64,000 nt of DNA from an uncultured Pseudomonadota bacterium (GTDB lineage: Bacteria > Myxococcota_A > UBA796 > SXON01). Location: positions 5,917 to 69,916 of the forward strand of contig CAIMSU010000077.1 of assembly GCA_903844155.1 (NCBI GenBank), written 5' to 3'. Both the position numbers and the translations under genes were made by a program. Within the stretch, counting starts at the first letter, position 1. Each line of letters opens with the position of its first letter. Positions 625 to 55,562 of this stretch are shown piece after piece. Below the pieces are notes generated by a model, which worked only from the letters and a program-made list of their open reading frames with translations, had not been told where the DNA came from and did no database searches.

Positions 625-668
625 TCCCACACGAATGTATGACAACCGACGACGTCGCTTTTGCTATG

Positions 669-697
669 TAGGAAAACTGACGACGTCAGTTTTCCTA
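669..697. repeat. Perfect palindrome with 14-bp arms: TAGGAAAACTGACG a CGTCAGTTTTCCTA. Possible terminator or operator; founding copy of an AT-rich palindrome family.
   Basis: Read directly from the sequence. Lies 45 nt after the epmA-like stop and 86 nt before the SDR start. A smaller related palindrome, CGACGaCGTCG, is at 647-657. Confidence 0.85.
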
Positions 698-782
698 GGT
701 GTGCTCCCCGGTCGTCGAATTTCGCGTTTGCGATTGCAGCACGGCTCATGCTGCATTACAGCACAGCCACTCTGGAGTCCCG

Positions 783-3979: not shown

Positions 3980-5383
3980 ATGGACGCGCAAACCACCGCA
4001 ACAGCGGCCTATATCGCGGCTTCCGCCCTGTTCATCCGCAGCCTCGGCGGCCTCTCCAACCCCGAGACCGCACGCGCGGGAAACCTCCAGGGCATGATCG
4101 GCATGGGCCTGGCCGTCGGCGCCACCGCCCTGCTGCTGCCGCCCGCTGCCCTGCCCGTCCTCGCCGTCGTCGTGGTGATCGGCCTGGCGATCGGCGGGAC
4201 GCTGGCGCAGCGCGTCGCCATGACGTCGATGCCGCAATTGGTCGCGATCCTCCACAGCTTTGTCGGCCTGGCTGCGGCGCTGGTCGGCTTTGCGAGCCAG
4301 CTTGGCGGGCACCACCCCACGGGTGCCGAGGGTGTCATCCACAGCGTGGCGTTGTACGCCGGCATCTTCATCGGCGCGGTGACCTTCACCGGCTCCGTCG
4401 TCGCCTGGGGCAAGCTCGAAGGGAAGATCGGCTCGAAGCCGTTGACGCTGCCGGGGCGGCACGGCGGAAACCTGCTGCTGGTCATCGTCGTAGCGGTGCT
4501 CGGCGTGGTCTACGCCATGAACCCAGAGGCCGGCCTGCCGATCCTGCTGATCATGAGCGGCATCGGTGGTTTTCTCGGCTGGCACATGGTCATGGCCATC
4601 GGCGGCGCGGACATGCCCGTCGTCGTCTCCATGCTCAACAGCTACTCCGGGTGGGCCGCGGCAGCCGACGGTTTTCTGCTCCAGAACGATCTGCTCATCG
4701 TCACCGGCGCGCTCGTCGGCAGCTCAGGCGCCATCCTCTCGTACATCATGTGCAAGGCCATGGCGCGCAGCTTCGTCAGCGTGATCCTCGGTGGTTTCGG
4801 GGCCGAAGAAGGCGCCGCACCCGCGAAGCCCGCAGACGGTCAGCCTGTCGGCGAGGCCGTCGCCACAGACGTCGCCACGCTCGTGAAGGAGCTGTCCGAA
4901 GCGTCAAGCGTCATCATCGTCCCGGGCTACGGAATGGCCGTCGCGCAGGCCCAGCACCCGGTCTACGCGCTCACGAAGCTCTTGCGCGCGCGCGGTGTCG
5001 AGGTCCGCTTCGCCATTCACCCCGTCGCCGGCCGCCTGCCCGGGCACATGAACGTGCTCCTCGCCGAGGCCAACCTGCCGTATGACCTCGTCCTCGAGAT
5101 GGACGAGATCAATGACGACTTTCCCGACACGGACGTGGTGCTCGTCATCGGTGCGAACGACATCGTCAACCCGGGCGCGCTCGACGATCCGTCATCGCCG
5201 ATCTACGGGATGCCCGTGCTGCACGCGTGGGAAGCCGCACGCGTGGTCGTGTTCAAGCGCGGCAAGGGCGCGGGCTACGCGGGTGTCGAGAATCCCCTGT
5301 TTGTACGCCCGTGTACGCGCATGCTCTACGGGGACGCGAAGAAGAGCGTGGACGCCCTGCTCGCGGGCCTGTCCGCGACGTAA
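3980..5383 (+). CDS. pntB: NAD(P) transhydrogenase subunit beta
   Basis: ATG lies directly after the pntA stop (TAGATG). Multi-TM N-terminal half and a dIII NADP(H) domain ([23 protein letters not shown]). Confidence 0.95.
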
Positions 5384-5394
5384 CGGGCGTCGTT

Positions 5395-5451
5395 ACAATA
5401 CTCATCCCGCATTTCGTATCAGCGTGATACGAAATGCGGGATGAGGATTGT
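5395..5451. terminator. Bidirectional intrinsic-terminator-like hairpin between convergent pntB and an outer-membrane protein gene
   Basis: Perfect 20-bp stem CTCATCCCGCATTTCGTATC / GATACGAAATGCGGGATGAG (5401-5420 / 5426-5445) with loop agcgt. Extendable by ACAAT/ATTGT with one mismatch. Markedly AT-rich relative to its surroundings. Confidence 0.75.
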
Positions 5452-5462
5452 CACACGAGCGG

Positions 5463-6404
5463 TCAGAACCGGACGCGAACATCCAAGGTGTGCACGTTGT
5501 GAAACGGGTCGTCGATCCGCACCCGCACGCCGTAGTCGAGGTCGCAGTCCGGTGAGGTGAAGCCGACGCCGCCGGTGACCCAGTTTTTCGTGGCCTCGTT
5601 GGCGTAGCCCGCGCGGATCGCCACGAATTGCGCGAAGCCGACGTTTGCGCCAACGCGCCAGTCCAGCTTCTTCCAGTCCCACGTCGTGGTGACCGGCGCG
5701 AGTACGTCGCCTTCGAGGCCGAAATACTGCCCAGCATCCCAGCGCGCGCCGAGGCGGAGCTGGCGTGATGTGTCACGAAAGTTGGTCTCGAGCAGGTTGT
5801 CGAGCGCCGCGGCGAGGACGAAGCTGTCGGCCGGCTTCCAGGCGCCGGAGACGCCGAAATTGAAGGCGCTCGCCTGGTCGAGCAGGTCCGAAACGTACCA
5901 GTCGTAGCGCGCGTCGACCGCCACCGACGCCTTCCGGTTGGAGAACGGGTAGGCGAGGCCGGCGTAGAGGCCCTGGTGGTCGGTGGGGTTTTGGAAGGTG
6001 CTGTCGGGCGTCATCCATCCCGGGCGTTCATCCTGCCAGAGCCAGCGCTCGTCGTGGACGTGGCGATAGCCGAGGGCGAGCGCGACGGGGCTGGAGCGGG
6101 AGTCCATCGCCCCGCCTCGCAGCGCAAAGTGGGCAAGCGGTCCAAGCTCGGCGCCCGTGTAGATCTCGTAGCGCTCGGTGAGGCTCGCCGTGGCGATGTT
6201 CAGGCGCAACGCCCCGATGTCGTTGGGGTTGGCGACGCCGACCAGCCCTGCGCCCGTCGCCCGCGCGCCGATGTCCTCCAGGTCTTCGTCGGCATCGACG
6301 CCAGGCTGTGCGGTGCCCCGCGCCGAGGCAACGGCGGGTGCCAGTAGCGCAACAAGCAGGATCGCGCGTGGATCTCGGAGAGTGCGGAGCTTGCCGATGC
6401 GCAT
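5463..6404 (-). CDS. Putative outer-membrane beta-barrel protein
   Basis: N-terminal signal peptide (LLVALLAPAVASARG), alternating amphipathic beta-strand pattern, and a C-terminal aromatic residue (…LDVRVRF) typical of OMPs. Family not identified. Confidence 0.6.
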   Translation of the reverse strand: MRIGKLRTLRDPRAILLVALLAPAVASARGTAQPGVDADEDLEDIGARATGAGLVGVANPNDIGALRLNIATASLTERYEIYTGAELGPLAHFALRGGAMDSRSSPVALALGYRHVHDERWLWQDERPGWMTPDSTFQNPTDHQGLYAGLAYPFSNRKASVAVDARYDWYVSDLLDQASAFNFGVSGAWKPADSFVLAAALDNLLETNFRDTSRQLRLGARWDAGQYFGLEGDVLAPVTTTWDWKKLDWRVGANVGFAQFVAIRAGYANEATKNWVTGGVGFTSPDCDLDYGVRVRIDDPFHNVHTLDVRVRF

Positions 6405-11005: not shown

Positions 11006-11823
11006 GCCGGGACGCCGGGCTCGGGCGGGCGCTGGAGGGGGCGTTGGTGGGGCTGGACGCGCACGTGCATCGCGATCCCATCCGGTTCCCAGGGCGGTAC
11101 AAGGCGCCGGGGGACGTCGAGATCGCCGCTGTGTACGCTGCACAGTTGGCGTTCGGACGCGTCGAACTGTTCGGACCGGTGCTGGCGCGGCTGTTCGCGG
11201 AGATGGACGCGGTCGGCGGGCCTGCAAGCTGGGTCGCAGAGGGCGGTCCGGACACCGGCGACCCGCTCGTCTACCGGTGGTTCGGGCGGGCCGACTTGCT
11301 CGCCCTCGCCGGTGCGCTCGCGCGTCTACAGGCCGCTGAGGGCCTCGCTGCCGCGTTCTCCGGGCCGACGGGGGAGGCGGCGATCGAGGTAGGCGTGACC
11401 CGCCTGCGCGCGCTCGTCGACGATCGGTCAGCCCGCGGGCGGTTCTTCGACACGTGGTTCGCGCGCCCGTCGTCGGGCTCGGCCTGCAAGCGCTGGTGCA
11501 TGTTCCTGCGCTGGATGGTCCGGCCCGGCGCGCCAGACCTGGGCATCTGGACCCACCTCTCCCCGGCGACCCTCGTGATGCCCGTCGACACCCACGTCCT
11601 CCGGATCGCCCAGCTCACCGGCCTGACCGACCGGCGCACCGCCGACTGGAAGACGGCCCTGCAGATCACCAGCCGACTTCGGGATTATTCGGCCGACGAC
11701 CCCATCCGCTACGACTTCGCCCTCGCGCACCTCGGGATCTCCTCGGGATGCACCGGGACGGCGTCGCCGGCGTGCGACGGGTGCGCGATGCGCAGTGTAT
11801 GTAGGGTCCATGTTCCCGGTTGA
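11002..11823 (+). CDS. TIGR02757/DUF2400 family protein (HhH-like fold, function unknown)
   Basis: DPIRFPGRY, AAQLAFGRV, FLRWMVRP..DLGIW, PVDTHVLRIAQLTGL and DPIRYDFALAHLG motifs. The ATG overlaps the upstream stop (ATGA). Confidence 0.75.
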   Translation: MSRDAGLGRALEGALVGLDAHVHRDPIRFPGRYKAPGDVEIAAVYAAQLAFGRVELFGPVLARLFAEMDAVGGPASWVAEGGPDTGDPLVYRWFGRADLLALAGALARLQAAEGLAAAFSGPTGEAAIEVGVTRLRALVDDRSARGRFFDTWFARPSSGSACKRWCMFLRWMVRPGAPDLGIWTHLSPATLVMPVDTHVLRIAQLTGLTDRRTADWKTALQITSRLRDYSADDPIRYDFALAHLGISSGCTGTASPACDGCAMRSVCRVHVPG

Positions 11824-12068
11824 TCGCCTTCCTCTTCGATGCGCCCTTGCGCTGATCCTCCCGCTGCTGGGCGGGTGCTGCCTGGATTTTGCCCTGGAGT
11901 GTCCGGAAACGCTGACGATCACCGGGGTCCCGCCCGGTGACGTCGCCCTCACCGTCAGGTTGTTCGACGGTGCGGAGCCCGCGACCTGCACCCTGCCTGC
12001 CGCGGCCGAAACCGCTGCGGATACGGCCCCGGACAGCGGCCCTGCGACAACTGCGTGCAACATGGGCA

Positions 12069-12260
12069 GCCAACACCGGCCCCTTCGGTCCGGTGATGGC
12101 TGTTTATTCTCGTCGCGCCTTGGCTTTCGACCAACTGCGCGTGTTCGTGACCTCCCTTGACGAGTCCACACCTGCGCCGCTGCGGGCGAGCGCGACCGCT
12201 GCTGACCGCGTCGAAGGCACGCTTCGTGCGGGGCACGAAGTCGCGCCTTCTCCTTGGCCA
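12069..12260 (+). mobile_element. Hairpin-ended repeat element, copy A (192 nt); candidate MITE/PATE-like non-autonomous element
   Basis: Over its 187-nt core, aligns end to end, with no net length difference, with copy C at 33838-34024. The 3' 80 nt are nearly identical; the centre is about 60% identical. Left hairpin 12074-12095, right hairpin 12213-12250. Preceded by GGCA and ends in TTGGCCA. Confidence 0.85.
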
Positions 12261-12455
12261 GCCAACACCGGCCCCTTCGGTCCGGTGATGGCTGTTTCTT
12301 CTGGGTCGGGCCTGCCAAACTCGGTTTTCGGGTTCGTTCGTGACATTCTTGACCCGTCAAGCTTCTGGCGTCCACGAGGCAGGCCCTCCCGTGGCCAACC
12401 CGGTTAGAAGGCACGGAACTTGCGGTCGCAAGCTCCGCGCCTTCTGGGTTGGCCA
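12261..12455 (+). mobile_element. Hairpin-ended repeat element, copy B (195 nt, divergent), head-to-tail with copy A
   Basis: Starts with the same 39 nt as copy A (GCCAACACCGGCCCCTTCGGTCCGGTGATGGCTGTTT) and ends in GCGCCTTCTGGGTTGGCCA. Its right hairpin (12407-12444) has a different inner stem that still pairs. Confidence 0.75.
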
Positions 12456-12740
12456 CCATCACCTTGTCGGACGGCGTCGTGACCTATTCGCTCCTGAACG
12501 GCGACTACCCGCCATCCTCCGGGCATGTGTGGCTCAGGGTCGACGGCGACACGGTCCTCGACCAGGACTTCGCCCCGACCCACGGGCCGCCCGGACACGT
12601 CTACGGCGCGTTCTGCCCCGCCAGCTGCACCTCCAGCGACGCGACCCTCGCGGTACCGACGCCCTGACGCTCGGACTCCGACCCGCACGCGCTGGCCGGT
12701 TCAGCGATTTCAATTAGAAGTGAAATCCCGGAGGCTCCCG

Positions 12741-14678
12741 ATGCCCGCTGACACCGCCTCACAGCCCCGCTGGAAGGTCGCCTGCGTGGGCTACACCAAC
12801 GCGTGGCCGCTCACGCGGCACCTGCCGACAACCGGCGAGGGGCCGACCTTCGACCTCATCCCCTGCGTTCCCAGCGAGGCCGCGCGTCTCTTGCGGACCG
12901 GCGAGGCCGACATCGGCCTTGTGCCTGTCGCCGCGCTCTTCAACGACGCGCCCGCTGTACCCGGCGGCCGGGAATCCGGCGCCTACAAGATCGTGCCTGG
13001 GTTCTGCATCGGATGTGACGGCGACGTGCAGAGCGTGCTGCTTGTCGGCGAGACGCCGGTCGAGGAGTGGGACGCTGTCGCGCTCGACGGTGAGAGCCGC
13101 ACCAGCGTGATCCTCGCGCAGATCCTCTTGCGCGGGCCGCTGAATCGCCCGGATCTACGGGTGTTTCCCGTTGACGCGGGCACCGGCGCCTTTCATGCGC
13201 AGGGCAAAACCGGCGCCGTCGTCATCGGCGATGCCGCTCGCAACCTTCCGGATCGCCTCACAACGCGCATCGACCTCGGCCGTGTCTGGAAGGACTGGAC
13301 CGGGCTTCCGTTCGTGTTCGCCGTCTGGGCAGGCCGACCCGGCCTGGATCCAGCCGCCATCGCCGGGATTCGTGAGGCGGGGCGCCGGGGAATGCCCGAC
13401 CGCCTCACCGCGCCCGAGGCCGACCGCGCGTATTTGACCGAGGCGATCCGCTACGAGCTGGACGATCGCGCGCTCATGGGCCTGCGCCGCTTTGCCGCGC
13501 TCGGAAAGCGCGCCGGCCTCCTCGCGAACGAGGACGTCTGCCTGTTTGGCCCACCGGTCACCCGGGCACGGCCGGGAATGGCGTCGCTGGACACCCTGCT
13601 CGCGCGCGGCGCAGAGGGTGGGCGGCTGACACTGGACGAGGGCGTCCGCCTTGAAACCGAGGCGCGCCTTGAGGATCTCGGGAACGCGGCCCACCTTCGG
13701 CGCATCGCGCTGCACCCGGAAAAGGAGGTGACGTACATCATCTCCCGCAACGTGAACTACACCAACATCTGCGTCACCGCCTGCAAGTTCTGCGCGTTCT
13801 ACCGCCCAAAGAACCACGCCGAGGCCTACGTGCTCACCAAGGAGCAGCTCCATCAGAAGATCAGCGAGCTGGAGGCGAAGGGCGGCATCGAGGTCCTTTT
13901 GCAGGGTGGGCTGAACCTCGCCCTCGGCATCGAGTATTACGAGGACCTCTTCCGATGGATCAAGGCCAACTATTCGGTGGCGCTGCACGCGCTCTCGCCC
14001 GAGGAGGTGTTCCACATCATGGCGGTCTCCAAGCTCACGATGGAGCAGACCCTCGACCGGCTCATCGGCGCCGGCATGGACAGCATCCCCGGCGGCGGCG
14101 CGGAGGTGCTCAACGACGACGTCCGCAAGCGGATCGCGCCCCTCAAATGCACCAGCGACGAGTGGCTCGCGGTCATGCGCATGGCCCATCAGAAGGGCCT
14201 ACGCTCCTCGGCGACGATGATGTTCGGCGTCGGTGAGACCAGCGCCCACCGCATGGAGCACCTCGTGCGCCTGCGCGAGCTGCAGGACGAATACCACGGG
14301 TTCACCGCCTTCATCTGCTGGACGTTCGTGCCAGACAACACCTACGTCCACCCCGGCAACAACACCGCCGCGATGTGGCTCCGTACCAACGCGGTCAGCC
14401 GGTTGATGCTGGACAACTTCGACAACCTGCAGGCGAGCTGGGTGACGCAGGGTCCGGGCGTTGCGCAGGCCAGCCTGACCATGGGCTGCAACGACTTTGG
14501 GAGCGTGATGCTTGAAGAGAACGTCGTCTCCGCCGCTGGATCGACGTGGGCCATGACCATCGACGACGTCGAGCACAACATCCGCACGGCCGGCTTCATC
14601 CCCGTGCGCCGCAACATGCGGTACGATCATTTGCCAACGCCCGGAACCCACGCGGGCGCCCCTCCCCCGGCCAAGTAA
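12741..14678 (+). CDS. Fusion protein: MqnA/MqnD-family (chorismate dehydratase-like) N-domain plus MqnC/MqnE-family radical SAM C-domain (futalosine menaquinone pathway)
   Basis: N-domain: KVACVGYTNAWPL...ADIGLVPVAAL (VitK2 biosynthesis/PBP-like). C-domain: NYTNICVTACKFCAFYR (CxxxCxxC) with a CofH/MqnC/MqnE-like remainder. GGAGG RBS lies before ATG 12741. Confidence 0.85.
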   Translation: MPADTASQPRWKVACVGYTNAWPLTRHLPTTGEGPTFDLIPCVPSEAARLLRTGEADIGLVPVAALFNDAPAVPGGRESGAYKIVPGFCIGCDGDVQSVLLVGETPVEEWDAVALDGESRTSVILAQILLRGPLNRPDLRVFPVDAGTGAFHAQGKTGAVVIGDAARNLPDRLTTRIDLGRVWKDWTGLPFVFAVWAGRPGLDPAAIAGIREAGRRGMPDRLTAPEADRAYLTEAIRYELDDRALMGLRRFAALGKRAGLLANEDVCLFGPPVTRARPGMASLDTLLARGAEGGRLTLDEGVRLETEARLEDLGNAAHLRRIALHPEKEVTYIISRNVNYTNICVTACKFCAFYRPKNHAEAYVLTKEQLHQKISELEAKGGIEVLLQGGLNLALGIEYYEDLFRWIKANYSVALHALSPEEVFHIMAVSKLTMEQTLDRLIGAGMDSIPGGGAEVLNDDVRKRIAPLKCTSDEWLAVMRMAHQKGLRSSATMMFGVGETSAHRMEHLVRLRELQDEYHGFTAFICWTFVPDNTYVHPGNNTAAMWLRTNAVSRLMLDNFDNLQASWVTQGPGVAQASLTMGCNDFGSVMLEENVVSAAGSTWAMTIDDVEHNIRTAGFIPVRRNMRYDHLPTPGTHAGAPPPAK

Positions 14679-27418: not shown

Positions 27419-27567
27419 TCCCTTAGGGCGGCTCGGTCGGCCCCGCGCCGGTGCCAAACGGGGACCATGGAACGCCGCATTGCCCGTGCGCGGGCTCCCT
27501 CGGGTTACCCCATCGCGTGCCGCCAGAGCCCCCCCCGATCGCCTCCCGCCTCGGCCGGGCGCGGGCG

Positions 27568-29370
27568 ATGGCCCCAGTCGCGCTCCTCGCCTTCGCGGGC
27601 GCCGTGGCGGCCACGTTCGTCGCGGCGTTCGCGCCGACGCAGACCATCTTGTGCAACTTCGTCCACCCGGATTGCCTCGGCAACCATTGGCTGATGGTGT
27701 GGGTGGCCGAGCAGGTGATGCACGGCCGCAGCATTCTCCACAACGACGCGTACTATTGGCCCATCGGCGACGCACCGTGGCTGGCGGGTAACGGCAGCGA
27801 AGGCTTCTTGTATCTGCCTTTTCAGGCGGCAATGGGCTGGCCGCTGGGTTCGAACGTCTACCTGATCGGCATCCTCGCGCTCAATGGGCTCGCGGCGTTC
27901 GCCCTCGCGCGCGCCGCGGGCGCGTCCACGCCGGCATCCCTCGCGGCCGTGCCGACCGCGACCTTGTCCATCTACACGCTTCAAGAGCTTGGCGCAGGCC
28001 GGTTTTCGCAAGTCAGCATCTGCTGGCTGGGGTTCTTCCTGGCGAGCTGGCTTCGGCTGCTCGCCGAGCCCACCGCGCGCCGGGCGCTGCTCTCGGGCCT
28101 GCTGCTCGCTGTCACCTCGCTATTTTACTGGTACTACGGCCTTTTCGGTGTGCTGGCCGGGGGCGTGCTGCTCCTCGCCCGGCGTCCCGCCGGGTCACTT
28201 CGCCCCCTCGCCGTCTTCGCGGCCACGTACCTTGTGCTGGTGCTACCGCTCTTGTTCGTCTTCCTGCGCTACTGGGCGAGCATCCCGGGCACGGGCGAGG
28301 AGCAGTTCCCGCACCCGCAGTCGTTCGGCGACAGTTGCTGGCCGGGCATCCCCTTCCTCGTCACGGGTGGCCGACACTCCGGACGGGCGCTCCCGTTCAC
28401 CACGGTCATCCTTGCTTTTGTCGGGCTCACCCACTCAAACCGTCGCGTTGCCCTGGGCCTGGGTGGCGTCGCGTTGCTGTTCGCCGGACTCATGGCCGGG
28501 CCGCTCATCCCGCACGGGCCCTACGAGTGGATCTACGGCCTCGCCCGCCCCCTTCAGCGGTTCTGGTGGCCCTACCGGCACGTCGCGGTGCTGAACTACA
28601 CGCTCATCACCCTCGCGGCCCTCGGCCTCGACCGGCTCGTCGATCTGTACCGGACGCGACGACCTATGAAAACTGACGTCGTCCGTTTTGATACATCGGC
28701 GGGGCTGGGCTGGGGGCTGGCGCTGTCGATCCCGCTCCAGTTGCAGCTCCAGGGCGCGCCCTGGCACGCGCAGTTCTCGCACGTCACTGCACCCGAGCCG
28801 TTCTACGCGAAGGTCGCGAAGCTGCCGGGCGCGCGGATGATCGAGCCGCCGCTGGCACCGGCGCTGGCCAGCAGCGAAACCCCTTTGATCTACCAGCTTT
28901 ATCACCACAAGCAGCTCCTGAACGGGCACGCCGAGTGGGTCGACCGGGTGCGCCCGAAGGCCTGGGACACGTTCGTCGCCCAAAACAGCTTTCTCACGGA
29001 GATGCAGGCGTTGGAGATGGGAAAGGTGAACGGGCCGTTCACGTTCCGCGCCGAGGACCTGCAGGCGCTGCTCGACCAGGACGTGCGCGTGATGGTGGTG
29101 AACCGCGAGTACTTTCCGGTCGCGTTCAACGGCCTCACCACCAGCTACTCCGCGTTGTTCAACGCGCTCTTTGGCCCGGCGACCGCCGAAGGAAAGCGCG
29201 CAGACGCCTGGGACATGGCGCGCTGGAACCATCAGAGCAGCGTGGACATCCCCCCGTTCGCCTGGCCCGCGAATGTTCAGCCTGGCGGCCCGGATCTCTC
29301 GATCCTCGGCATGCACGAGGCCTCGATGGGCTTCACCATGCCGGCGATGGGACCGCAAAAGGGCAAGTAG
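27568..29370 (+). CDS. Polytopic membrane protein (about 10 TM) with a C-terminal periplasmic domain; family not recognised
   Basis: Long high-GC3 ORF with repeated hydrophobic helices up to about residue 360, then a soluble domain. Start ATG 27568 (MAPVALLAF). Confidence 0.65.
   Translation: MAPVALLAFAGAVAATFVAAFAPTQTILCNFVHPDCLGNHWLMVWVAEQVMHGRSILHNDAYYWPIGDAPWLAGNGSEGFLYLPFQAAMGWPLGSNVYLIGILALNGLAAFALARAAGASTPASLAAVPTATLSIYTLQELGAGRFSQVSICWLGFFLASWLRLLAEPTARRALLSGLLLAVTSLFYWYYGLFGVLAGGVLLLARRPAGSLRPLAVFAATYLVLVLPLLFVFLRYWASIPGTGEEQFPHPQSFGDSCWPGIPFLVTGGRHSGRALPFTTVILAFVGLTHSNRRVALGLGGVALLFAGLMAGPLIPHGPYEWIYGLARPLQRFWWPYRHVAVLNYTLITLAALGLDRLVDLYRTRRPMKTDVVRFDTSAGLGWGLALSIPLQLQLQGAPWHAQFSHVTAPEPFYAKVAKLPGARMIEPPLAPALASSETPLIYQLYHHKQLLNGHAEWVDRVRPKAWDTFVAQNSFLTEMQALEMGKVNGPFTFRAEDLQALLDQDVRVMVVNREYFPVAFNGLTTSYSALFNALFGPATAEGKRADAWDMARWNHQSSVDIPPFAWPANVQPGGPDLSILGMHEASMGFTMPAMGPQKGK
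28669..28689. repeat. Second copy of the AT-rich palindrome (AAAACTGACG t CGTCcGTTTT), located in-frame inside the membrane-protein CDS
   Basis: 9 of 10 arm positions pair. Shares the GAAAACTGACG core with 669-697. Forms a local low-GC patch translated as ...RRPMKTDVVRFDTS... Confidence 0.7.
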
Positions 29371-32550: not shown

Positions 32551-35160
32551 CTACCCGTCGGCCCAGCTCCGAAGCGCGTCCAGGAACCGGGCACCGTAGC
32601 GAGCGAACCGCTTCTCGCCCATCCCGTGGATCGCCATCATCGAGCTGCGGGTCACCGGGCGCTTCTCGACCATGTCCGCGAGCGTGCGGTCCGCCGCGAC
32701 GACGTAGGCGGGCACGTCGTCCGCGCGCGCGAGCTCGGCACGCACCTCGCGGAGCTGGGCGAGGAGGTCGCGGCGGACCCCGACAGGCGCCCGACCAACG
32801 GCGGCGGAGCGCGTCGCCTTCTGCCCGAGCGGGAAATTCATGCGGAAGCCGGACGCGCGCTGGTGCATCACCTGCTCCCCGAGGTCGGTCAGTTGAACCA
32901 CGGCAAAGGTCCGCTCAACGCCCTTGACCGGCCGCGTGACGACCGACCGCCTGGTTGCCCCGGCGCGCTCAAGCTCGCCGAGCACGCTCTCGACCTCCGC
33001 CCGCGTGTACTGGGAGAGGATTCCGTAGGTGCTCAGCCGTTCAAAGCCGAACGCCAGAACGGCAGGCTCGGTGCTGCCGACGAGCACGCGCGCCACCATG
33101 TCTGGCTTGAACCCCTCGCCCGCTCCCCTGTCCGCGCCGCTCCGGGCCGCCATCCGCCCGATGCAGGCCAGCACCTTGCGCACGACCGTCTCCTCCTCCG
33201 GCGAGAGCGGCTGTGGTCCGACGGCGATCTTCCTGCCTTCGCGGCACCCGTCACAATCGCCACAGCGCTCCCAGGGCGGGCTGTCCCCGAAGTATTCCAG
33301 AAGGTAGCGGCGGCGGCAGCCAGCAGCGGCATAATCCACCATCTTCTGGAGCTTTTGGAGTTCGCGACCACGCCGCTCCTTCATCTTCTGCTCGTCGAAC
33401 GCCAGCACGGCACCGGGTTTGAGCAGCTCGAACCCGCCGACCCGCTCGGGCGCGTTGTACGTGAGGACGCCGCGCTGCTCCAGGCCGCGCAGCGCGACCG
33501 CCACCTGCTCCCGGGTCAGGTCCAGCTCCTCAGCGATCCGGTCCGGCCAGACCGCGACGGCGTCCTCCGCGGTCGTCGCCCCGGCACGCCGTGCGAGCGT
33601 CTTGAGGCATGCCAGAACGCGTCCACGTTGCCCATCGGCGACCTGCGCATCGTCGCGCGGTGATGGCGCGGTGAGCCGGACCTGACCGGCCCGCTCGGCC
33701 GGCGCAACGCGTCGCACGTAGCCCTCGCGCTGCAGCACGTAAATGCAGCTCCCCGCTGCCCTTTCGCCCCCTGCATCGTCAGGAAGGACGGCAGCAAGCT
33801 CCTCCAGCCCGATGAACACGATCGCGGTGGCACCCATCACCGGGCCCTCCGGTCCGGTGACGGCGGTTTCTTCCCCGTCGCGCCCGGTTTTCCGGCTGTG
33901 ACGCGTGTTGGTGGCATCGGTTGACGTGTCCACGCCCGCGCGGGAAACAGCGAGCGCGACGGCTGCTGACCGCGTCGAAGACACGCTTCGTGCGGGGCAC
34001 GACGTCGCGCCTTCTCCTTGGCCACCCGGGATCGCCGTCGTCCGGTCGCCGTTCAGCGCGTTCAGGCGCGCCCAGATGCGCTGCACCCAGTCTGCCGGCG
34101 GATGGGCGAGGTTGATGAAGAACTCCTGGGTCCTTCGGTCGTCCTCGCGAAAGAGCAACACCACGCGGCTCCGCTCTCCATCGCGCCCGGCTCGGCCAAT
34201 CTCCTGATAGTACGCCTCGATTGTCCCCGGCAGATCGTAGTGGACGATGGTCCTGACGCATGCCTTGTCCACACCCATGCCGAACGCGTTGGTCGCCACG
34301 ACGACCGGGGATCGCCCGTCCATGAACGCGTCCTGCACCGCCGTCCGCTCCGCCATCTCCAGGCCTGCGTGGTACATCGCCACGCGATCCCGGCCGATCG
34401 AAGCGCGTAATGCCTCCGTCGCCCGCTCGACGTTCTTGCGGGTTGCCGCGTAGATCAACGTCGAGCCCGTGCTGACGAGCGAGGCCAACACAGCGTCCTT
34501 CTCACGCGGCCCGTTGACCGGCAGCACCTCCAGGCGCAGATTCGCGCGGTCAAAGCCCGTGACGAACCGACGCGCCTGCGGGATCCCGAGCGCGCGCAGG
34601 ATGTCGGTCTGCACGAGCGGTGTGGCGGTCGCGGTGAGCGCGACCGTTCGCGGGTCGCCCAGGGCGTGACGCACCTCGCCGAGCCGCAGGTAGTCCGGCC
34701 GAAAATCATGGCCCCACTGACTCAAGCAGTGCGCCTCGTCCAGCGCGAGCAGCCGTACCTTCGCGGCGCGCAGCCGCTCCACGAAAACCGGCGTGAACCG
34801 CTCAGGCGCGACAAAAACAAGCTCCCAGGCGCCTTCCTGCACCTCCCGGAGCCGAGCCCGACGCTCCTCGACCGGGATCGTGGAGTTGATGAGCGTCGCC
34901 CGCACCCCCCGCCGCACCAGCCCCTCAACCTGGTCCTTCATGAGCGCGATGAGCGGCGACACCACGACCGCCACCCCACCCGCGCCCGCCGTCAGCGCGA
35001 TCGCCGGCAACTGGTAGCAGAGCGACTTCCCCGCACCCGTCGGCATGACCACGAGCGCATCCCCGGACTCGACGATGTGCTCGACGATCTCGGCTTGCCC
35101 AGGCCGAAAGCTCGGAAACCCCAGACGTTGCTTCAGCAGATGTTCGAGCGGGAGCGCCAT
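32551..35160 (-). CDS. recQ: RecQ-family ATP-dependent DNA helicase (long form with Zn-binding, WH and HRDC regions) carrying a 64-codon repeat-element insert
   Basis: FRPGQAEIV, MPTGAGKSLCYQ, DEAHCLSQWGHDFRPDY, GRAGRDG, the Cys cluster CRRRYLLEYFG...CGDCDGC and the C-terminal HRDC (VVAADRTLADMVEKRP...GMGEKRFARYG). Confidence 0.95.
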   Translation of the reverse strand: MALPLEHLLKQRLGFPSFRPGQAEIVEHIVESGDALVVMPTGAGKSLCYQLPAIALTAGAGGVAVVVSPLIALMKDQVEGLVRRGVRATLINSTIPVEERRARLREVQEGAWELVFVAPERFTPVFVERLRAAKVRLLALDEAHCLSQWGHDFRPDYLRLGEVRHALGDPRTVALTATATPLVQTDILRALGIPQARRFVTGFDRANLRLEVLPVNGPREKDAVLASLVSTGSTLIYAATRKNVERATEALRASIGRDRVAMYHAGLEMAERTAVQDAFMDGRSPVVVATNAFGMGVDKACVRTIVHYDLPGTIEAYYQEIGRAGRDGERSRVVLLFREDDRRTQEFFINLAHPPADWVQRIWARLNALNGDRTTAIPGGQGEGATSCPARSVSSTRSAAVALAVSRAGVDTSTDATNTRHSRKTGRDGEETAVTGPEGPVMGATAIVFIGLEELAAVLPDDAGGERAAGSCIYVLQREGYVRRVAPAERAGQVRLTAPSPRDDAQVADGQRGRVLACLKTLARRAGATTAEDAVAVWPDRIAEELDLTREQVAVALRGLEQRGVLTYNAPERVGGFELLKPGAVLAFDEQKMKERRGRELQKLQKMVDYAAAGCRRRYLLEYFGDSPPWERCGDCDGCREGRKIAVGPQPLSPEEETVVRKVLACIGRMAARSGADRGAGEGFKPDMVARVLVGSTEPAVLAFGFERLSTYGILSQYTRAEVESVLGELERAGATRRSVVTRPVKGVERTFAVVQLTDLGEQVMHQRASGFRMNFPLGQKATRSAAVGRAPVGVRRDLLAQLREVRAELARADDVPAYVVAADRTLADMVEKRPVTRSSMMAIHGMGEKRFARYGARFLDALRSWADG
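33833..34024 (+). mobile_element. Hairpin-ended repeat element, copy C (192 nt), inside recQ. Same + strand orientation as copies A/B, so antisense to recQ.
   Basis: CACCGGGCCCTCCGGTCCGGTG...GCTGCTGACCGCGTCGAAGACACGCTTCGTGCGGGGCACGACGTCGCGCCTTCTCCTTGGCCA aligns with 12074-12260. Preceded by TGGCA. Translated in recQ as GQGEGATSCPARSVSSTRSAAVALA...EETAVTGPEGPVM. Confidence 0.85.
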
Positions 35161-52821: not shown

Positions 52822-53730
52822 GTGCCGCTCGCGGGCATCGGGCTCGGCGCGCTGACCGGTGCGCTGCGGGACGGCACGACGCCGACTGCGCTGCTCCTCG
52901 CGGCGGAGCCCCTGCCGGCGGTGCTGGGAATCTGCACGGTCCACGTGTGCTTCACCCGAGGGCGCTGGGCGGCCGGCCTGGCCGTCGCCGTCGGCATCTC
53001 GGCGTTCATCCTCCTCTCACGCATCACGCCCTTGGCGCCCTGGCCCGAGCTGCCCGGCCGGCCCCCAAAAGATCCAGCGACCCTCGCGGCCTGCGGGCGA
53101 CGGGCGATCCCGCCTGAGTCCTTCATCCTCGCGCTCTGGACGGGCGCCAACGACGCGAACACTGTCAACCGCCTCACGGACGTCGCCGACGAGGTGGTCC
53201 TCGTCCGCCCGGGCATCGACCTGCCGACACCCGCGGGAGGTGAATACCTGTCCCTGCCCGGCGACAACGTCATCTGGTCGCGCAACGGGTTCGCGGCCTG
53301 CGGCGACACGGATACCTGGCCGGTGGGACGGCACTCTGCGCTGGTCTACGCCTCGCCAGCGCCGGACGTCTCGGTACCGCTGCTCGTCACGGACCTGCCG
53401 ACGCTCGGACCGGAATTGAACTGGGAGATCGCGGATATCGGCGCGTTCGCCACGGCGACGGGCGGGCCGCTCGTGGTCGCAGGGGCTGGCACGTTCCCCA
53501 CCAGCTTCCTGCGCACCAGCGAGCGGCTCGACGACGCGGGCCTGGCCGAGCTGCGGCTGCCTCCCAACGCGCCGATCGCCTGGGGCAGGCTCCCCCTCCT
53601 CGCGCTGCGCTCCGTGAACCACGTCTGGGTCGCTCCAGCGTGGACCGGCCGCGGCGAGGTGCTGGACGGGGGCGCCTCCTGGTCCGCGCCCGTGGTCCTG
53701 CGTCTGGACGCGACCTACCAGACCCCGTGA
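52822..53730 (+). CDS. Hypothetical membrane protein; the C-terminal domain weakly resembles a catalytically degenerate endonuclease/exonuclease/phosphatase (EEP) fold
   Basis: GTG start; 2-3 N-terminal TM helices. Segments ALWTGAND, VVAGAGTFP, VNHVWV and SWSAPVVLRL lie where EEP proteins have WN, GDFN, DH and SDHxPV. The resemblance is by eye only. Confidence 0.5.
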   Translation: MPLAGIGLGALTGALRDGTTPTALLLAAEPLPAVLGICTVHVCFTRGRWAAGLAVAVGISAFILLSRITPLAPWPELPGRPPKDPATLAACGRRAIPPESFILALWTGANDANTVNRLTDVADEVVLVRPGIDLPTPAGGEYLSLPGDNVIWSRNGFAACGDTDTWPVGRHSALVYASPAPDVSVPLLVTDLPTLGPELNWEIADIGAFATATGGPLVVAGAGTFPTSFLRTSERLDDAGLAELRLPPNAPIAWGRLPLLALRSVNHVWVAPAWTGRGEVLDGGASWSAPVVLRLDATYQTP

Positions 53731-55562
53731 ACGCCGACTCCGAGCGGGGAGAGCGTGAGTGAGGTGTGCAGGGGCCCGAGCACGACGCCCGTGCCCTCAA
53801 GCGCCACACCGCCCGCCAGCAGGGCGATCGTGGCCCATTTGCCGGTGTTGAAGCGTCCGGTGATCGCCTGCGCGTCCGCCGGGGTCACCGCGCTCGGGTC
53901 TGCGATCGCCGCCTGACCGTCGGCCCACGCGGGGTTCACGACGAGAAAGTTCACGACCGCGCCGCCAGCGAGCACCGCGCCGCCCGCGCCCATCAGCGCA
54001 TAGCCGACCGTGCCACCGCGATGCTCGTCACCCCGCGTGGCCTTGCCAACGACCTTGTTCGCCGCCTTGTCGGCCGCGGCCTGCGCGTCCGCGCGGGCCT
54101 TCGCATCGGCCGCCGCCTTGTCCGCGGCAGCCTTGTCCGCGGGGGTGCGCGCGTCGGCCTTCGCCTTGGCGTCAGCCGCGGCCTTGTCCGCCGCCGCCTG
54201 CGCCGCGGCTTTGTCCGCCGCGGCTTGAGCGGCAGCCTTGGCCTTCGCGTCCGCATCAGCCTTCGTCTTCGCGTCCGCATCAGCCTTCGTCTTCGCGTCG
54301 GCAGCGGCTTTGTCGGCCAGGGCCTTCGCGTCAGCGTCGGCCTTCGTCTTCGCATCGGCAGCGGCTTTGTCGGCCAGGGCCTTCGCGTCAGCGTCGGCCT
54401 TCGTCTTCGCGTCAGCAGCGGCTTTGTCGGCCAGGGCCTTCGCGTCAGCGTCGGCCTTCGTCTTCGCGTCAGCCGCGGCTTTGTCGGCCAGGGCCTTCGC
54501 GTCAGCTTTGGTCTTCGCATCGGCAGCGGCTTTGTCGGCCAGGGCCTTCGCGTCCGCGTCCGCCTTCGTCTTCGCGTCGGCGGCGGCTTTGTCGGCGAGG
54601 GCCTTCGCATCGGCGTCGGCCTTCGTCTTCGCGTCGGCCGCGGCTTTGTCGGCGAGCGCCTTCGCATCGGCGTCGGCCTTCGTCTTCGCGTCGGCAGCGG
54701 CCTTTGCATCGGCGTCCGCCTTCGCCTTCGCGTCAGCGGCGGCCTTGTCCGCGAGGGCCTTGGCATCCGCGGCAGCCTTCGCCTTCGCGTCCGCGGCGGC
54801 TTTGTCCGCGGCGACCTTCGCGTCCGCATCGGCCTTCGCCTTCGCGTCAGCGGCTGCCTTCGCGTCGGCAGCGGCCTTGGCCTTGGCGGCCTTGTCGGCA
54901 GCGGCGGTGTCCACGACGGCCGCGCTGTCCGGCTTCTTCGGCGATTTCGGAGCCTTCATCCCCGGGTAGACGCCGCCGGTGCAGAGCACCGTGTAGTCCG
55001 GAGGTGCGGTTCCGAAGCTGTACCAGGTCCCGACGATGCTCCCGTCTCCGCACCGAAGCTGGACGAAGTGCTCACCGACGTGCACCGTGTCGCCCTGCTC
55101 CTTCTTCGCCCCGTCGATGAACAGCACCGCGTCGCCGGTGTCGTCGGGGAGGTTCAGGGGCGCCTCGGTGTAGCCCTTCACCTCGTTGGCAACGGCGTAA
55201 AAGGCGTCCTGGCCATCGGTGTCCGGCAACACGGAGGCGTCCGGCTCGTACATCGGGTTCAAGACGGCCGCCGCTCGCCAGGCGTCCAGCGCCTTCTTGT
55301 TGCGGTCGCCGCCGTACCACTCGGCGACGCCCCGGTAGAACAGCGACCGGGACAGGTCCGCGGACAGGATGAGCTTGGCGCTTGACGGAGCCGCGGCCTT
55401 CGCGTCGTCGAGGACCTTCTCGGCACCTCGGTAATCCTTCGCGATCAACTTGGCTTTCGCGGCATCCACGAGGGCGACGAACGCAGCGTCATCCGCTCGC
55501 GCCTGCGGTGCCCCGAGCGCCAGGAGCAGCGCCATCAACCCCATTGCCCCAAGACCCCTCAT
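53715..55562 (-). CDS. Secreted/membrane-anchored protein: TPR-like plus PEGA-like N-domains, a long Ala/Lys/Asp coiled-coil repeat region and C-terminal hydrophobic segments
   Basis: Signal MRGLGAMGLMALLLALGAPQARA; 19-aa repeats KADADAKALADKAAADAKT; C-terminal Gly/Ala-rich TM-like helices. The ATG overlaps the upstream kinase stop (ATGA). Confidence 0.75.
   Translation of the reverse strand: MRGLGAMGLMALLLALGAPQARADDAAFVALVDAAKAKLIAKDYRGAEKVLDDAKAAAPSSAKLILSADLSRSLFYRGVAEWYGGDRNKKALDAWRAAAVLNPMYEPDASVLPDTDGQDAFYAVANEVKGYTEAPLNLPDDTGDAVLFIDGAKKEQGDTVHVGEHFVQLRCGDGSIVGTWYSFGTAPPDYTVLCTGGVYPGMKAPKSPKKPDSAAVVDTAAADKAAKAKAAADAKAAADAKAKADADAKVAADKAAADAKAKAAADAKALADKAAADAKAKADADAKAAADAKTKADADAKALADKAAADAKTKADADAKALADKAAADAKTKADADAKALADKAAADAKTKADAKALADKAAADAKTKADADAKALADKAAADAKTKADADAKALADKAAADAKTKADADAKALADKAAADAKTKADADAKTKADADAKAKAAAQAAADKAAAQAAADKAAADAKAKADARTPADKAAADKAAADAKARADAQAAADKAANKVVGKATRGDEHRGGTVGYALMGAGGAVLAGGAVVNFLVVNPAWADGQAAIADPSAVTPADAQAITGRFNTGKWATIALLAGGVALEGTGVVLGPLHTSLTLSPLGVGVHGVW
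54301..54693. repeat. Tandem repeat with a 57-nt period, seven units (one shortened to 51 nt), within a broader Ala/Lys/Asp low-complexity tract of about 54010-54930
   Basis: Unit GCAGCGGCTTTGTCGGCCAGGGCCTTCGCGTCAGCGTCGGCCTTCGTCTTCGCATCG recurs at 54301, 54358, 54415, 54472, 54523, 54580 and 54637. Confidence 0.9.

What the first reader, a model, noticed from the sequence alone, without database searches (positions are those of the whole stretch)
11810..12667. Two head-to-tail copies of the same element split a small lipoprotein gene
Copy A (12069-12260, 192 nt) and copy B (12261-12455, 195 nt) are directly abutted. Upstream is an ORF fragment with a lipoprotein signal (MFPVDRLPLRCALALILPLLGGC...TTACNMG). 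Downstream is a high-GC3 fragment with no start or signal (…TITLSDGVVTYSLLNGDYPPSSGHVWLRVDGD...AVPTP*). Both fragments are in the same frame (start coordinates mod 3 equal). Deleting exactly the 387 nt of A plus B gives a continuous 156-aa lipoprotein. In this + orientation the element carries stops (TGA at 12158-12160), so here insertion is disruptive. In recQ the opposite-sense reading is open.
Basis: partly seen in the sequence, partly recalled or inferred. Interest (0 to 1): 0.6.

Follow-up and report, generated by a model that had tools for sequence, protein, structure and literature searches.

The report
Mobile hairpin repeats split lipoprotein gene
A small lipoprotein gene in an uncultured Myxococcota-like genome is cut in two by a 387-base pair of short, non-coding, hairpin-rich repeats from a family with no database match, and a third copy sits in frame, apparently harmlessly, inside the recQ helicase gene.

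Summary
Two abutting ~195-nt elements (A 12065-12259, B 12260-12457) separate a lipobox-bearing 5' ORF fragment from a start-less 3' fragment in the same frame. Codon usage is gene-like only in that frame on both sides and in no frame inside the elements. Removing 387 nt restores a 156-aa ORF. The interpretation needs two corrections.

- A and B are not two copies of one element. They are two subtypes that share a 5' hairpin (45/48 nt) and a 3' hairpin scaffold, but their interiors are only ~56% identical. Copy C in recQ is the A subtype.
- The same A-then-B pair, gaplessly colinear and at most 87% identical, occurs at an unrelated intergenic locus of the same metagenome. The pair is therefore a recurring composite unit, probably inserted once.

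The recQ copy is absent from 120 homologues, including 84-87%-identical orthologues. AlphaFold models it as a disordered loop. I found no Rfam match and no relatives in the genome, metagenome, viral or plasmid collections. There are no convincing terminal inverted repeats and no consistent target duplication.

Best reading: a lineage-restricted family of structured, non-autonomous mobile repeats, MITE/RPE-like in effect. The orphan lipoprotein gene has no homologues, so the orthologue test could not be done.

The parts
11810..12067 (+). 5' fragment of the orphan lipoprotein gene. It holds a signal peptide and a lipobox (LLGGC, Cys23) and ends ...TTACNMG.
   Evidence: Searches give the translation. 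GC3 is 0.77. Codon LLR is +0.12 in this frame only. The junction with the element is confirmed in L015.
11810..12160 (+). Present-day truncated ORF of 116 aa: 86 native residues plus 30 element-encoded residues. Its stop, TGA 12158-12160, lies inside the conserved TTGAC motif of A.
12065..12259 (+). Element A (A subtype). It begins GGCAGCCAAC and its 3' end TTGGCC is fused to the start of B.
   Evidence: 216 bits. Identity to C is 80%. The MFE z-score is -2.9.
12067..12110 (+). P1 of A: a 13-bp G+C-rich hairpin (12067-12102) followed by the T-rich tract TTTATTCT. Terminator-like on the + strand.
   Evidence: -26 kcal/mol.
12112..12196 (+). Central domain of A. It is closed by the helix GTCGCGC/GCGCGAC and contains the conserved motif GTTCGTGAC-N5-TTGAC-N-GTCCAC.
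12213..12250 (+). P3 of A: a 3' hairpin with the conserved clamp GAAGGCACG...CGCGCCTTC around the inner helix CTTCGTGC/GCACGAAG.
12260..12457 (+). Element B (B subtype). It has the same 5' hairpin and the same 3' clamp as A but a different interior, and it ends GGGTTGGCCACC.
   Evidence: (163 bits). The MFE is -112.5 kcal/mol with z = -8.5. The 3' junction is confirmed in L001.
12259..12302 (+). P1 of B plus the T-rich tract TTTCTTCT. Terminator-like on the + strand.
12308..12386 (+). Central domain of B. It is closed by GGGCCTGCC/GGCAGGCCC, a different sequence from A/C at the equivalent position, and carries the same GTTCGTGAC...TTGAC...GTCCAC motif.
12391..12456 (+). Extended 3' hairpin of B: the outer helix GTGGCCAACCC/GGGTTGGCCAC encloses P3 (12407-12444). 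The P3 inner helix is ACTTGC/GCAAGC, where A and C have CTTCGTGC/GCACGAAG.
12455..12667 (+). 3' fragment of the lipoprotein gene (TITLSDGVV...AVPTP*). It is in the same frame as the 5' fragment and has no signal peptide. The only start is a TTG at 12449 inside B, with no Shine-Dalgarno sequence.
   Evidence: GC3 is 0.92. Codon LLR is +0.27 in this frame only. MAG annotation called it as a 62-aa gene.
33829..34026 (+). Element C (A subtype), antisense inside recQ (32551-35160, - strand). It is read through in frame as residues ~376-442 of RecQ.
   Evidence: 199 bits. It is absent from 120 RecQ homologues. It is present in about 10 independent contigs. pLDDT is below 50.
33820..33828 (+). GATCGCGGT, the left member of an imperfect (8/9) 9-bp direct repeat flanking C. 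The right member is GATCGCCGT at 34030-34038. It may be a target duplication or a chance match.
   Evidence: No equivalent repeat flanks the A-B pair or the P0001 pair, as far as the fixed codon positions of P0001 (sequence) allow; that check was made by hand, not by a tool call.

Best explanation
A and B are two diverged members (A-type and B-type) of a lineage-restricted family of ~195-nt non-coding repeats. These repeats behave as non-autonomous mobile DNA.

Each unit has three parts. The first is a 5' G+C-rich hairpin followed by a T-rich tract. The second is a helix-closed central domain carrying the conserved motif GTTCGTGAC...TTGAC...GTCCAC. The third is a 3' hairpin with a conserved clamp and a variable inner stem. 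Units begin GGCA(G/C)CCA and end TTGGCCACC.

Shown: the A-B pair, fused end to end at TTGGCC|AGCC, sits in sense orientation in a small orphan lipoprotein gene at ...AAC ATG GGC | ACC ATC ACC.... In that orientation it supplies an in-frame stop 91 nt in.

Inferred: it also supplies two terminator-like hairpins, so the gene is now a truncated pseudogene. The pair most likely arrived as one composite unit.

Shown: a solo A-type copy entered recQ in the opposite orientation. There the T-tract does not follow the hairpin and one frame is open, so the copy is retained as a 64-70-residue insertion.

Inferred: AlphaFold models that insertion as a disordered surface loop, which suggests it is tolerated.

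Inferred: movement depends on an enzyme encoded elsewhere. The lack of inverted termini, the lack of a consistent target duplication, the subterminal hairpins kept by compensatory change, and the GGC(C)ACC-like sequence at every junction all point the same way. They favour a hairpin- or core-site-recognising mechanism, either IS200/IS605-like single-strand transposition or site-specific recombination, over classical cut-and-paste.
For: - Three full-length copies, all on the + strand, and nothing else in the 64-kb window.
- Coding statistics flip exactly at the element borders.
- The frame is restored by removing 387 nt.
- The recQ copy is missing from all 120 homologues. 110 of them have a 5-residue loop at that point where the window has 79 residues. 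This includes orthologues 84-87% identical in the best local alignment.
- The insertion shows no coding periodicity and a codon LLR of -0.03, against +0.31 to +0.38 in the flanking recQ.
- AlphaFold gives pLDDT <50 and no secondary structure for residues 376-442, with mean pLDDT 87.3 for the whole model.
- A second A-B pair occurs at an unrelated intergenic locus of the same sample (ERZ1426836). It aligns gaplessly over about 130 codons, differs by at least 51 of 405 nt, and has different flanks.
- Structure is conserved without sequence. The central closing helix and the P3 inner helix have different sequences in A/C and in B but pair in both. MFE z-scores are -8.5 for B and -2.9 for A.
- In the back-translated P0001 pair, the B' 5' hairpin keeps a 13-bp stem through changes on both arms. 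This is an inference from codons.
- The terminator scan flags both 5' hairpins on the + strand and none in the recQ orientation.
- Short-read assemblies break at these repeats.
Against: - There are only three loci (two in the window, one seen only as a protein), so the ends, the target and the mobility mechanism are under-determined.
- No homologue of the lipoprotein exists to prove it was once intact.
- No empty-site allele was found in the same population.
- No transposase or recombinase is seen among the window's annotated genes (Pfam lists).
- Inverted termini are limited to GCCAA/TTGGC.
- A 9-bp 8/9 direct repeat flanks C, but none flanks either pair.
- No further copies were found in about 16 kb beyond the window ends or in about 45 kb of relatives' recQ loci.
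- The middle 40 nt of A that bridges the two short-read contigs was seen only in the window.
Confidence: 0.7

Rival explanations
1. The units are genes for, or DNA copies of, a functional structured RNA of about 195 nt: a guide or bridge-like RNA for a recombinase or nuclease, a small regulatory RNA, or an unrecognised ribozyme. On this reading, mobility and target choice are properties of that RNA system, and these are not passive MITE-like passengers.
For: - The architecture has several helices (P1, a closed central domain with inner hairpins, P3) and is kept between subtypes by different sequences at equivalent helices.
- B has an MFE z-score of -8.5.
- A conserved single-stranded motif is shared by all copies.
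- A hairpin plus T-tract fits an RNA 3' end.
- The right flanks are complementary to the P1 descending arm: CCATCACC against GGTGATGG at the lipoprotein site and CGCCGTC against GACGGCG at recQ. This was read directly from the sequence.
- All copies share one orientation.
- There are no TIRs and no consistent TSD.
Against: - No Rfam family matches, even at E<=10.
- No sigma-70-like promoter was found.
- The covariation rests on essentially two independent lineages.
- The flank complementarity is in different registers at the two sites and may be chance.
- No partner protein gene is nearby.
- Copy C is decaying: P3 is -13 against -25 kcal/mol, and z is -1.9.
Confidence: 0.15
2. There never was a single lipoprotein gene. 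The 5' ORF is a short stand-alone or spurious ORF, the 3' fragment is unrelated, and the repeats simply lie in an intergenic spacer.
For: - The joined protein has no homologue and no Pfam family.
- The 5' fragment's coding signal is modest: GC3 0.77 and LLR +0.12.
- The second pair (P0001) is intergenic.
Against: - Both fragments score as coding only in one frame, and it is the same frame.
- The 3' fragment has very high GC3 (0.92) but no start codon, no ribosome-binding site and no signal peptide of its own.
- The 5' fragment runs open up to the element and stops only inside it.
- The frame is restored by removing a length that is a multiple of three.
Confidence: 0.08
3. The tandem arrangement is an assembly artefact, created when repeat copies were joined wrongly. 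In reality only one unit, or none, interrupts the locus.
For: - Independent short-read assemblies all break here. The left contigs end at window ~12093 and the right contigs start at ~12133 or 12428.
- The 5' 48 nt of A and B are near-identical.
Against: - Both outer junctions are reproduced in Logan contigs.
- The ERZ1426836 contig has 346 nt upstream of the 62-aa gene. That is exactly the distance expected if it contains the 3' 127 nt of A plus all of B.
- An independent locus shows the same A-B pair with the same lengths.
Confidence: 0.04
4. The units are self-splicing introns or another RNA-level excised element. Both lie in sense orientation in the lipoprotein gene, so the mature mRNA would be intact.
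For: - The units are in sense orientation and highly structured.
- Precise removal restores the frame.
Against: - No group I, group II or other ribozyme model matches at E<=10.
- At about 195 nt the units are below the usual size of self-splicing introns (own knowledge).
- The recQ copy is antisense and is tolerated by translation, not by splicing.
- The P0001 pair is intergenic.
Confidence: 0.02

Closest known systems
Prokaryotic MITEs (for example Neisseria Correia elements and Coxiella QMITE1/2), as reviewed in PMC10969869
   Same: - Under 500 bp, with no coding capacity.
- Several copies at unrelated sites.
- Stable stem-loop transcripts.
- Can disrupt genes or fuse in frame with them.
- Presumably mobilised in trans.
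   Different: - No convincing terminal inverted repeats; only GCCAA/TTGGC pair.
- The ends are direct repeats of GGC(C)A(S)CC.
- No consistent target-site duplication.
- G+C-rich, and found in coding DNA rather than AT-rich intergenic DNA.
- The fold has three domains and is not a single long hairpin.
Rickettsia palindromic elements (RPEs)
   Same: A short repeat inserted in frame into a housekeeping gene (recQ) and translated as an extra peptide segment that is compatible with the host fold. Here AlphaFold models it as a disordered loop.
   Different: - No sequence relationship, and a different phylum.
- Only one of the three loci is an in-frame fusion; the lipoprotein insertion is disruptive.
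- The translated peptide has no coding signature.
IS200/IS605-derived non-autonomous elements (palindrome-associated transposable elements)
   Same: - Subterminal hairpins at both ends.
- No TIRs and no TSD at two of the three loci.
- All copies in one orientation.
- Hairpins kept by compensatory change, as expected if the hairpin is what the enzyme recognises.
   Different: - The left and right hairpins are unrelated to each other.
- No clear conserved tetra- or pentanucleotide target 5' of the element.
- No TnpA or TnpB gene was seen.
- The central domain is also structured.
Site-specific integrating units bounded by a shared core (integron cassettes with attC, elements integrating at dif)
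   Same: - Head-to-tail arrays in which neighbouring units share one junction core.
- Every junction here carries GGC(C)A(S)CC.
- The 3' hairpin of B is bracketed by GGCCAAC...GTTGGCC, which resembles the attC R''/R' boxes RYYYAAC/GTTRRRY (consensus recalled from own knowledge).
   Different: - Each box differs from the attC consensus at one position, and A and C lack the R''-like arm.
- No integrase, attI site or cassette array context.
- The units sit inside ordinary chromosomal genes.

Membership tests
MITE (definition in PMC10969869: <500 bp, TIRs of ~4-30 bp, flanking direct repeats in young copies, no transposase, stem-loop transcripts) | Small size and no coding capacity | tested here: met
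   Units are 192-198 nt and the pair is 387-393 nt. Codon LLR is negative in all six frames and GC3 is flat.
MITE | Terminal inverted repeats | tested here: not met
   The 5' end GGCAGCCAAC and the reverse complement of the 3' end, GGTGGCCAA(C/G), share only a GCCAA core of 5-6 nt (read). The termini are better described as direct repeats, GGCASCC...GGCCACC.
MITE | Target-site duplication | tested here: inconclusive
   C is flanked by GATCGCGGT/GATCGCCGT (8/9). No direct repeat of 6 nt or more flanks the A-B pair. None is compatible with the fixed codon positions of the P0001 flanks (sequence; hand check, not a tool call).
MITE | Multiple copies at unrelated loci, with presence/absence polymorphism | tested here: met
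   Three loci: the lipoprotein gene, recQ and the P0001 intergenic site. The recQ copy is absent from all 120 homologues.
MITE | A related autonomous IS sharing the ends | not testable with these tools
   No transposase Pfam family appears among the genes annotated on the window's contigs.
Rickettsia palindromic element-like in-frame repeat | Inserted in frame in ORFs and translated with the host protein | tested here: inconclusive
   Met for C in recQ. Not met for A-B, which has a stop at 12158. P0001 is intergenic.
IS200/IS605-derived non-autonomous element | Subterminal hairpins, no TIR, no TSD | tested here: met
   P1 starts 2-3 nt from the 5' end and P3 ends 13 nt before the 3' end. TIR and TSD results are given in the MITE rows above.
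IS200/IS605-derived non-autonomous element | Conserved 4-5-nt target immediately 5' of the left end, and left and right hairpins that resemble each other | tested here: not met
   The left flanks are ...ACATG and ...GCGGT, and in P0001 ...CAnCG (P0001 derived by hand from the sequence). P1 and P3 share no sequence.
IS200/IS605-derived non-autonomous element | A cognate Y1 transposase (TnpA) in the genome | not testable with these tools
   Only about 80 kb of this genome could be read.
Any Rfam 15 RNA family (including group I/II introns, small ribozymes, sRNAs) | Match to a covariance model | tested here: not met
   No hit at gathering thresholds over the whole window. Over 11900-12600 at E<=10 only three chance-level hits of 12-17 bits appear.
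Intrinsic (Rho-independent) terminator | G+C-rich hairpin immediately followed by a T-run on the transcribed strand | tested here: met
   P1 plus TTTATTCT or TTTCTTCT is flagged at 12086-12102 and 12278-12294 on the + strand. Four sites were found against 0.6 expected. None was found around C. This is a consensus match only; function was not tested.
Integron cassette / attC | R''/R' core boxes (RYYYAAC...GTTRRRY) bracketing an imperfect hairpin, plus an IntI/attI context | tested here: not met
   B has GGCCAAC...GTTGGCC, with one mismatch to each box. A and C lack the R''-like arm. No integrase is present in the annotated neighbourhood.

The most novel reading that the evidence does not exclude
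The ~195-nt unit encodes a previously undescribed structured RNA, or a single-stranded DNA fold. Its three domains (5' hairpin, closed central domain with an invariant GTTCGTGAC...TTGAC...GTCCAC motif, 3' hairpin with a variable inner stem) are needed for its own sequence-directed mobility. One form of this would be a guide or bridge-type RNA working with a recombinase encoded elsewhere, which recognises GGCACC-like sites that resemble the element's own end-to-end junction. The A-B heterodimer would then be a functional two-module unit and not an accident of insertion.
Probability: 0.12. Interest if true: 0.8.

Novelty: new variant of a known kind. Interest (0 to 1): 0.42.

Why it matters
- It adds a G+C-rich Myxococcota lineage to the short list of bacteria in which small non-coding repeats enter protein-coding genes. 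Here they do so in two ways: destructively in the lipoprotein gene, and as a tolerated in-frame peptide in the recQ helicase.
- The family does not fit the textbook MITE definition. It lacks TIRs and a consistent TSD. Its ends are direct repeats. Its hairpins are kept by compensatory change. A heterodimer recurs as a unit. A full-genome census could therefore reveal an unusual mobilisation mechanism or a new structured RNA.
- Practically, these repeats break short-read assemblies and produce spurious ORF calls such as P0001 and split-gene annotations in MAGs.

Tried and rejected
- **Exact-motif scan of 596 Gb of GTDB representative genomes** (CACCGGNCCCTNCGGTCCGGTGA). It returned 5 hits, all unrelated coding DNA on alignment.
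- **Two-anchor motif scan of JGI metagenome contigs.** It returned one hit, a chance match in a cytochrome oxidase assembly region.
- **Viral contigs and PLSDB plasmids.** Nothing found.
- **Protein search with a concatenated six-frame translation of A, B and C.** The candidate list saturated at 8000 and nothing scored. This search was wasted.
- **Homologues of the joined lipoprotein.** None found, and no Pfam family.
- **Exact-product look-ups.** The truncated 116-aa product is not on record.
- **Looking for an assembly that bridges the locus or has an empty site.** All contigs carrying the flanking genes end at the repeats.
- **Covariance-model searches beyond the window.** I searched about 16 kb beyond both window ends and about 45 kb around recQ in two related genomes and found no further copies.
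- **Rfam.** Searched at gathering thresholds and at relaxed thresholds; no family matched.
- **Self-splicing intron, intein and translational-bypass readings.** Rejected. No ribozyme model matches, there are stops in frame, and copy C is antisense.
- **GC skew as a test of strand-specific insertion.** Uninformative: skew is -0.03 on the + strand, while gene orientation favours the + strand.
- **Literature search for the sample accessions.** No paper found.
Full report
**What is in the sequence**

The window is 68.6% G+C. The closest RecQ homologues that carry a source name are mostly from Myxococcota MAGs. Exact protein look-ups place the window in metagenome assemblies ERZ1426836 and ERZ27313597 and in runs ERR41947xx.

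At 12065-12457 two ~195-nt units lie head to tail with no spacer. Their first 38 nt are identical and do not occur in shuffled sequence. A third unit lies at 33829-34026. A covariance model built from the three copies finds only these three in the window, all on the + strand. It finds none in about 16 kb beyond the window ends. It finds none in about 45 kb around recQ in two related genomes.

**The split gene**

The ORF upstream of A starts MFPVDRLPLRCALALILPLLGGC, a signal peptide with an LGGC lipobox. It runs into A and stops at TGA 12158-12160, which lies inside the element's conserved TTGAC motif. Downstream of B the same frame is open to 12667.

- GC3 is 0.77 in the 5' fragment and 0.92 in the 3' fragment, against 0.61 and 0.63 in A and B.
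- A codon-usage log-likelihood trained on 16 window genes is positive only in the shared frame for both fragments (+0.12 and +0.27 bits per codon). The neighbouring DUF2400 gene scores +0.25. A and B are negative in all six frames.
- Removing 387 nt gives a 156-aa ORF. The unit ends carry direct GGC(C)A(S)CC repeats, so removing 393 nt is equally in frame.
- The joined protein has no homologue at E<=0.01 and no Pfam family.

**Independent support for the arrangement**

- Logan contig L015 ends 29 nt into A with the same left junction.
- L001 starts 30 nt before the end of B and continues into the 3' fragment.
- A 62-kb ERZ1426836 contig has 346 nt upstream of the 62-aa 3' fragment.
- No assembly with an empty site or with a single unit was found.

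**A and B are different subtypes, and the pair is a unit**

- A against C: 162/202 identical.
- A against B: 45/48 identical in the 5' 48 nt, 63/112 in the centre (5 of 300 shuffles score as well) and 38/58 in the 3' 52 nt.

An exhaustive phmmer search of 1.84 billion representative proteins, using the recQ insertion peptide as query, found one hit, P0001. P0001 is a 247-aa ORF with no Pfam family, probably a spurious call. It lies between two minus-strand genes on a 92-kb contig of the same sample. It is the antisense translation of a B-type unit followed by an A-type unit, which is A then B on the element strand. It aligns without gaps to the window pair over about 130 codons, and its flanks are unrelated. 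The amino-acid differences imply at least 51 of 405 nucleotide differences. The pair is therefore an old, recurring composite, and one insertion of the pair explains the lipoprotein locus as well as two insertions do.

**Structure**

Each unit folds into three parts.

- P1 is a 13-bp G+C-rich hairpin with a UUCG-type loop.
- The central domain is closed by a long-range helix. It contains a small hairpin with a U-rich loop and the invariant motif GTTCGTGAC...TTGAC...GTCCAC.
- P3 is a 38-nt hairpin.

The central closing helix is GTCGCGC/GCGCGAC in A and C but GGGCCTGCC/GGCAGGCCC in B. The P3 clamp GAAGGCACG...CGCGCCTTC is shared, while the inner stem is CTTCGTGC/GCACGAAG in A and C and ACTTGC/GCAAGC in B. 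B folds at -112.5 kcal/mol (z = -8.5), A has z = -2.9, and C has z = -1.9 with mismatches in P3.

In the codon-parsimonious reconstruction of P0001, the B' P1 stem reads CAGCCATCTCCCG...CGGGAGGTGGCTG. It is still 13 bp, with changes on both arms (an inference from back-translation). No Rfam family matches.

P1 followed by TTTATTCT or TTTCTTCT is flagged as terminator-like on the + strand. Nothing is flagged around C.

**The recQ copy**

RecQ here is 869 aa. Its closest relatives are 784-800 aa, 84-87% identical in the best local alignment (76-80% over the whole alignment), and lack the segment. Between ...RLNA and VF..., 110 of 120 homologues have 5 residues, ten have 8-12, and the window has 79. 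The same 869-aa product is on record in about 10 contigs from several runs, and L008 carries the identical insertion. The inserted codons have no coding signature. AlphaFold2, run with a 121-sequence alignment, gives mean pLDDT 87.3 and pTM 0.78. Residues 376-442 are below 50 with no secondary structure and lie between helix 356-376 and strand 446-448. The insertion thus looks like a tolerated surface loop.

**Ends, target and mechanism**

All units begin GGCA(G/C)CCA(A/T)CACCGG and end TTGGCCACC. At the A|B junction the two termini are merged into TTGGCCAGCC. The codons of P0001 are compatible with this; that check was made by hand.

Only GCCAA/TTGGC can pair as inverted termini. C is flanked by an 8/9 9-bp direct repeat, but the A-B pair has no flanking repeat of 6 nt or more. 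The P0001 flanks are incompatible with such a repeat at fixed codon positions (hand check on the sequence).

If the shared GGC(C)ACC is counted once, the reconstructed empty sites read ATG-GGCACC-ATC in the lipoprotein gene and GGT-GGCACC-CGG in recQ. GGCACC occurs about 0.56 times per kb per strand. Because the motif is also part of the element ends, this cannot be scored as an independent coincidence.

These features argue against a classical TIR/TSD cut-and-paste MITE. They are more compatible with hairpin-recognising single-strand transposition (IS200/IS605-like) or with recombination at a short core. Recombination at a core would also explain head-to-tail fusion. No candidate enzyme is encoded in the window (Pfam lists). 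This part is inference.

**Comparison with known systems**

In effect the family behaves like prokaryotic MITEs and Rickettsia palindromic elements, which are known both to disrupt genes and to fuse in frame with them (PMC10969869). It fails the TIR criterion, and the TSD criterion is inconclusive. It has no sequence or model match anywhere I could search. I therefore do not file it as a MITE, RPE, REP/BIME, IS200/IS605 derivative or attC cassette. I describe it instead as a new variant of the general kind 'small non-autonomous structured repeat'.

**Verdict**

The split gene is likely but cannot be proved without an orthologue. 'Two copies of the same element' should read 'a recurring heterodimer of two subtypes'.
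- Interest is moderate (0.42). The finding is ordinary in effect but unusual in anatomy and lineage.
- There is a small chance (about 0.12) that the conserved fold marks a new mobile RNA system.

Noticed in passing
window 666-700 and 28662-28696: An AT-rich palindrome occurs twice in a 69% G+C window: AGGAAAACTGACGACGTCAGTTTTCCT and ATGAAAACTGACGTCGTCCGTTTTGAT. The first lies about 85 nt upstream of a short-chain dehydrogenase gene (783-1535). The second lies inside ORF 27451-29370. It looks like an operator or binding site.
   Followed up: partly
window 5392-5454: A 30-nt near-perfect (93%) AT-rich hairpin, GTTACAATACTCATCCCGCATTTCGTATCA/TGATACGAAATGCGGGATGAGGATTGTCAC, sits between the convergent genes 3980-5383 (+) and 5463-6404 (-). 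It looks like a bidirectional terminator.
   Followed up: no
window 53715-55616 (- strand): A secreted or membrane-anchored protein carries many tandem 19-residue repeats, DKAAADAKTKADADAKALA (57-nt period, about 54060-54920). It has an N-terminal signal and a C-terminal hydrophobic segment.
   Followed up: partly
window 12456-12463 and 34033-34039: The DNA just right of B (CCATCACC) is perfectly complementary to the P1 descending arm GGTGATGG. It pairs better than the element's own ascending arm, which has an A·A mismatch. The right flank of C (CGCCGTC) is complementary to C's variant arm GACGGCG, but in a different register. This could be chance, or a hint of target recognition by pairing. 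Read directly from the sequence.
   Followed up: partly
window 12449-12667: A TTG inside the 3' end of B opens an in-frame ORF (MATITLSDG..., 72 aa) covering the whole 3' fragment. It has no Shine-Dalgarno sequence and no signal peptide. MAG annotation instead called a 62-aa gene from GTG 12479.
   Followed up: no
window 32551-35160 (recQ) and homologues P0002-P0121: This RecQ clade is about 785 aa. It carries an extra winged-helix-like region of roughly 230 aa (window residues ~446-610, after the insertion) between the helicase core and the Zn-finger Cys cluster (C615, C633, C636, C639). The element landed in the variable loop that opens this region.
   Followed up: partly
window 12741-14678: A single 645-aa protein combines VitK2_biosynth (MqnA-like), Radical_SAM and CofH_C (MqnC-like) domains. 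It looks like a fused futalosine-pathway enzyme and sits just downstream of the disrupted gene, behind its own terminator-like hairpin at 12690-12706.
   Followed up: no
L009 1-2645 (relative's recQ locus, ERZ18648440): In one assembly of the related genome, an 882-aa large serine recombinase (Resolvase, Recombinase, Zn_ribbon_recom) is fused or adjacent to a MopE-like segment. In another assembly (ERZ1426853) the same place holds only a 282-aa MopE-like gene. This suggests a polymorphic integrated element.
   Followed up: no
L016 1-260 (about 6 kb left of the window start): tRNA-like genes on the minus strand sit at the end of the Logan contig. That contig end is not caused by the repeat family.
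   Followed up: no
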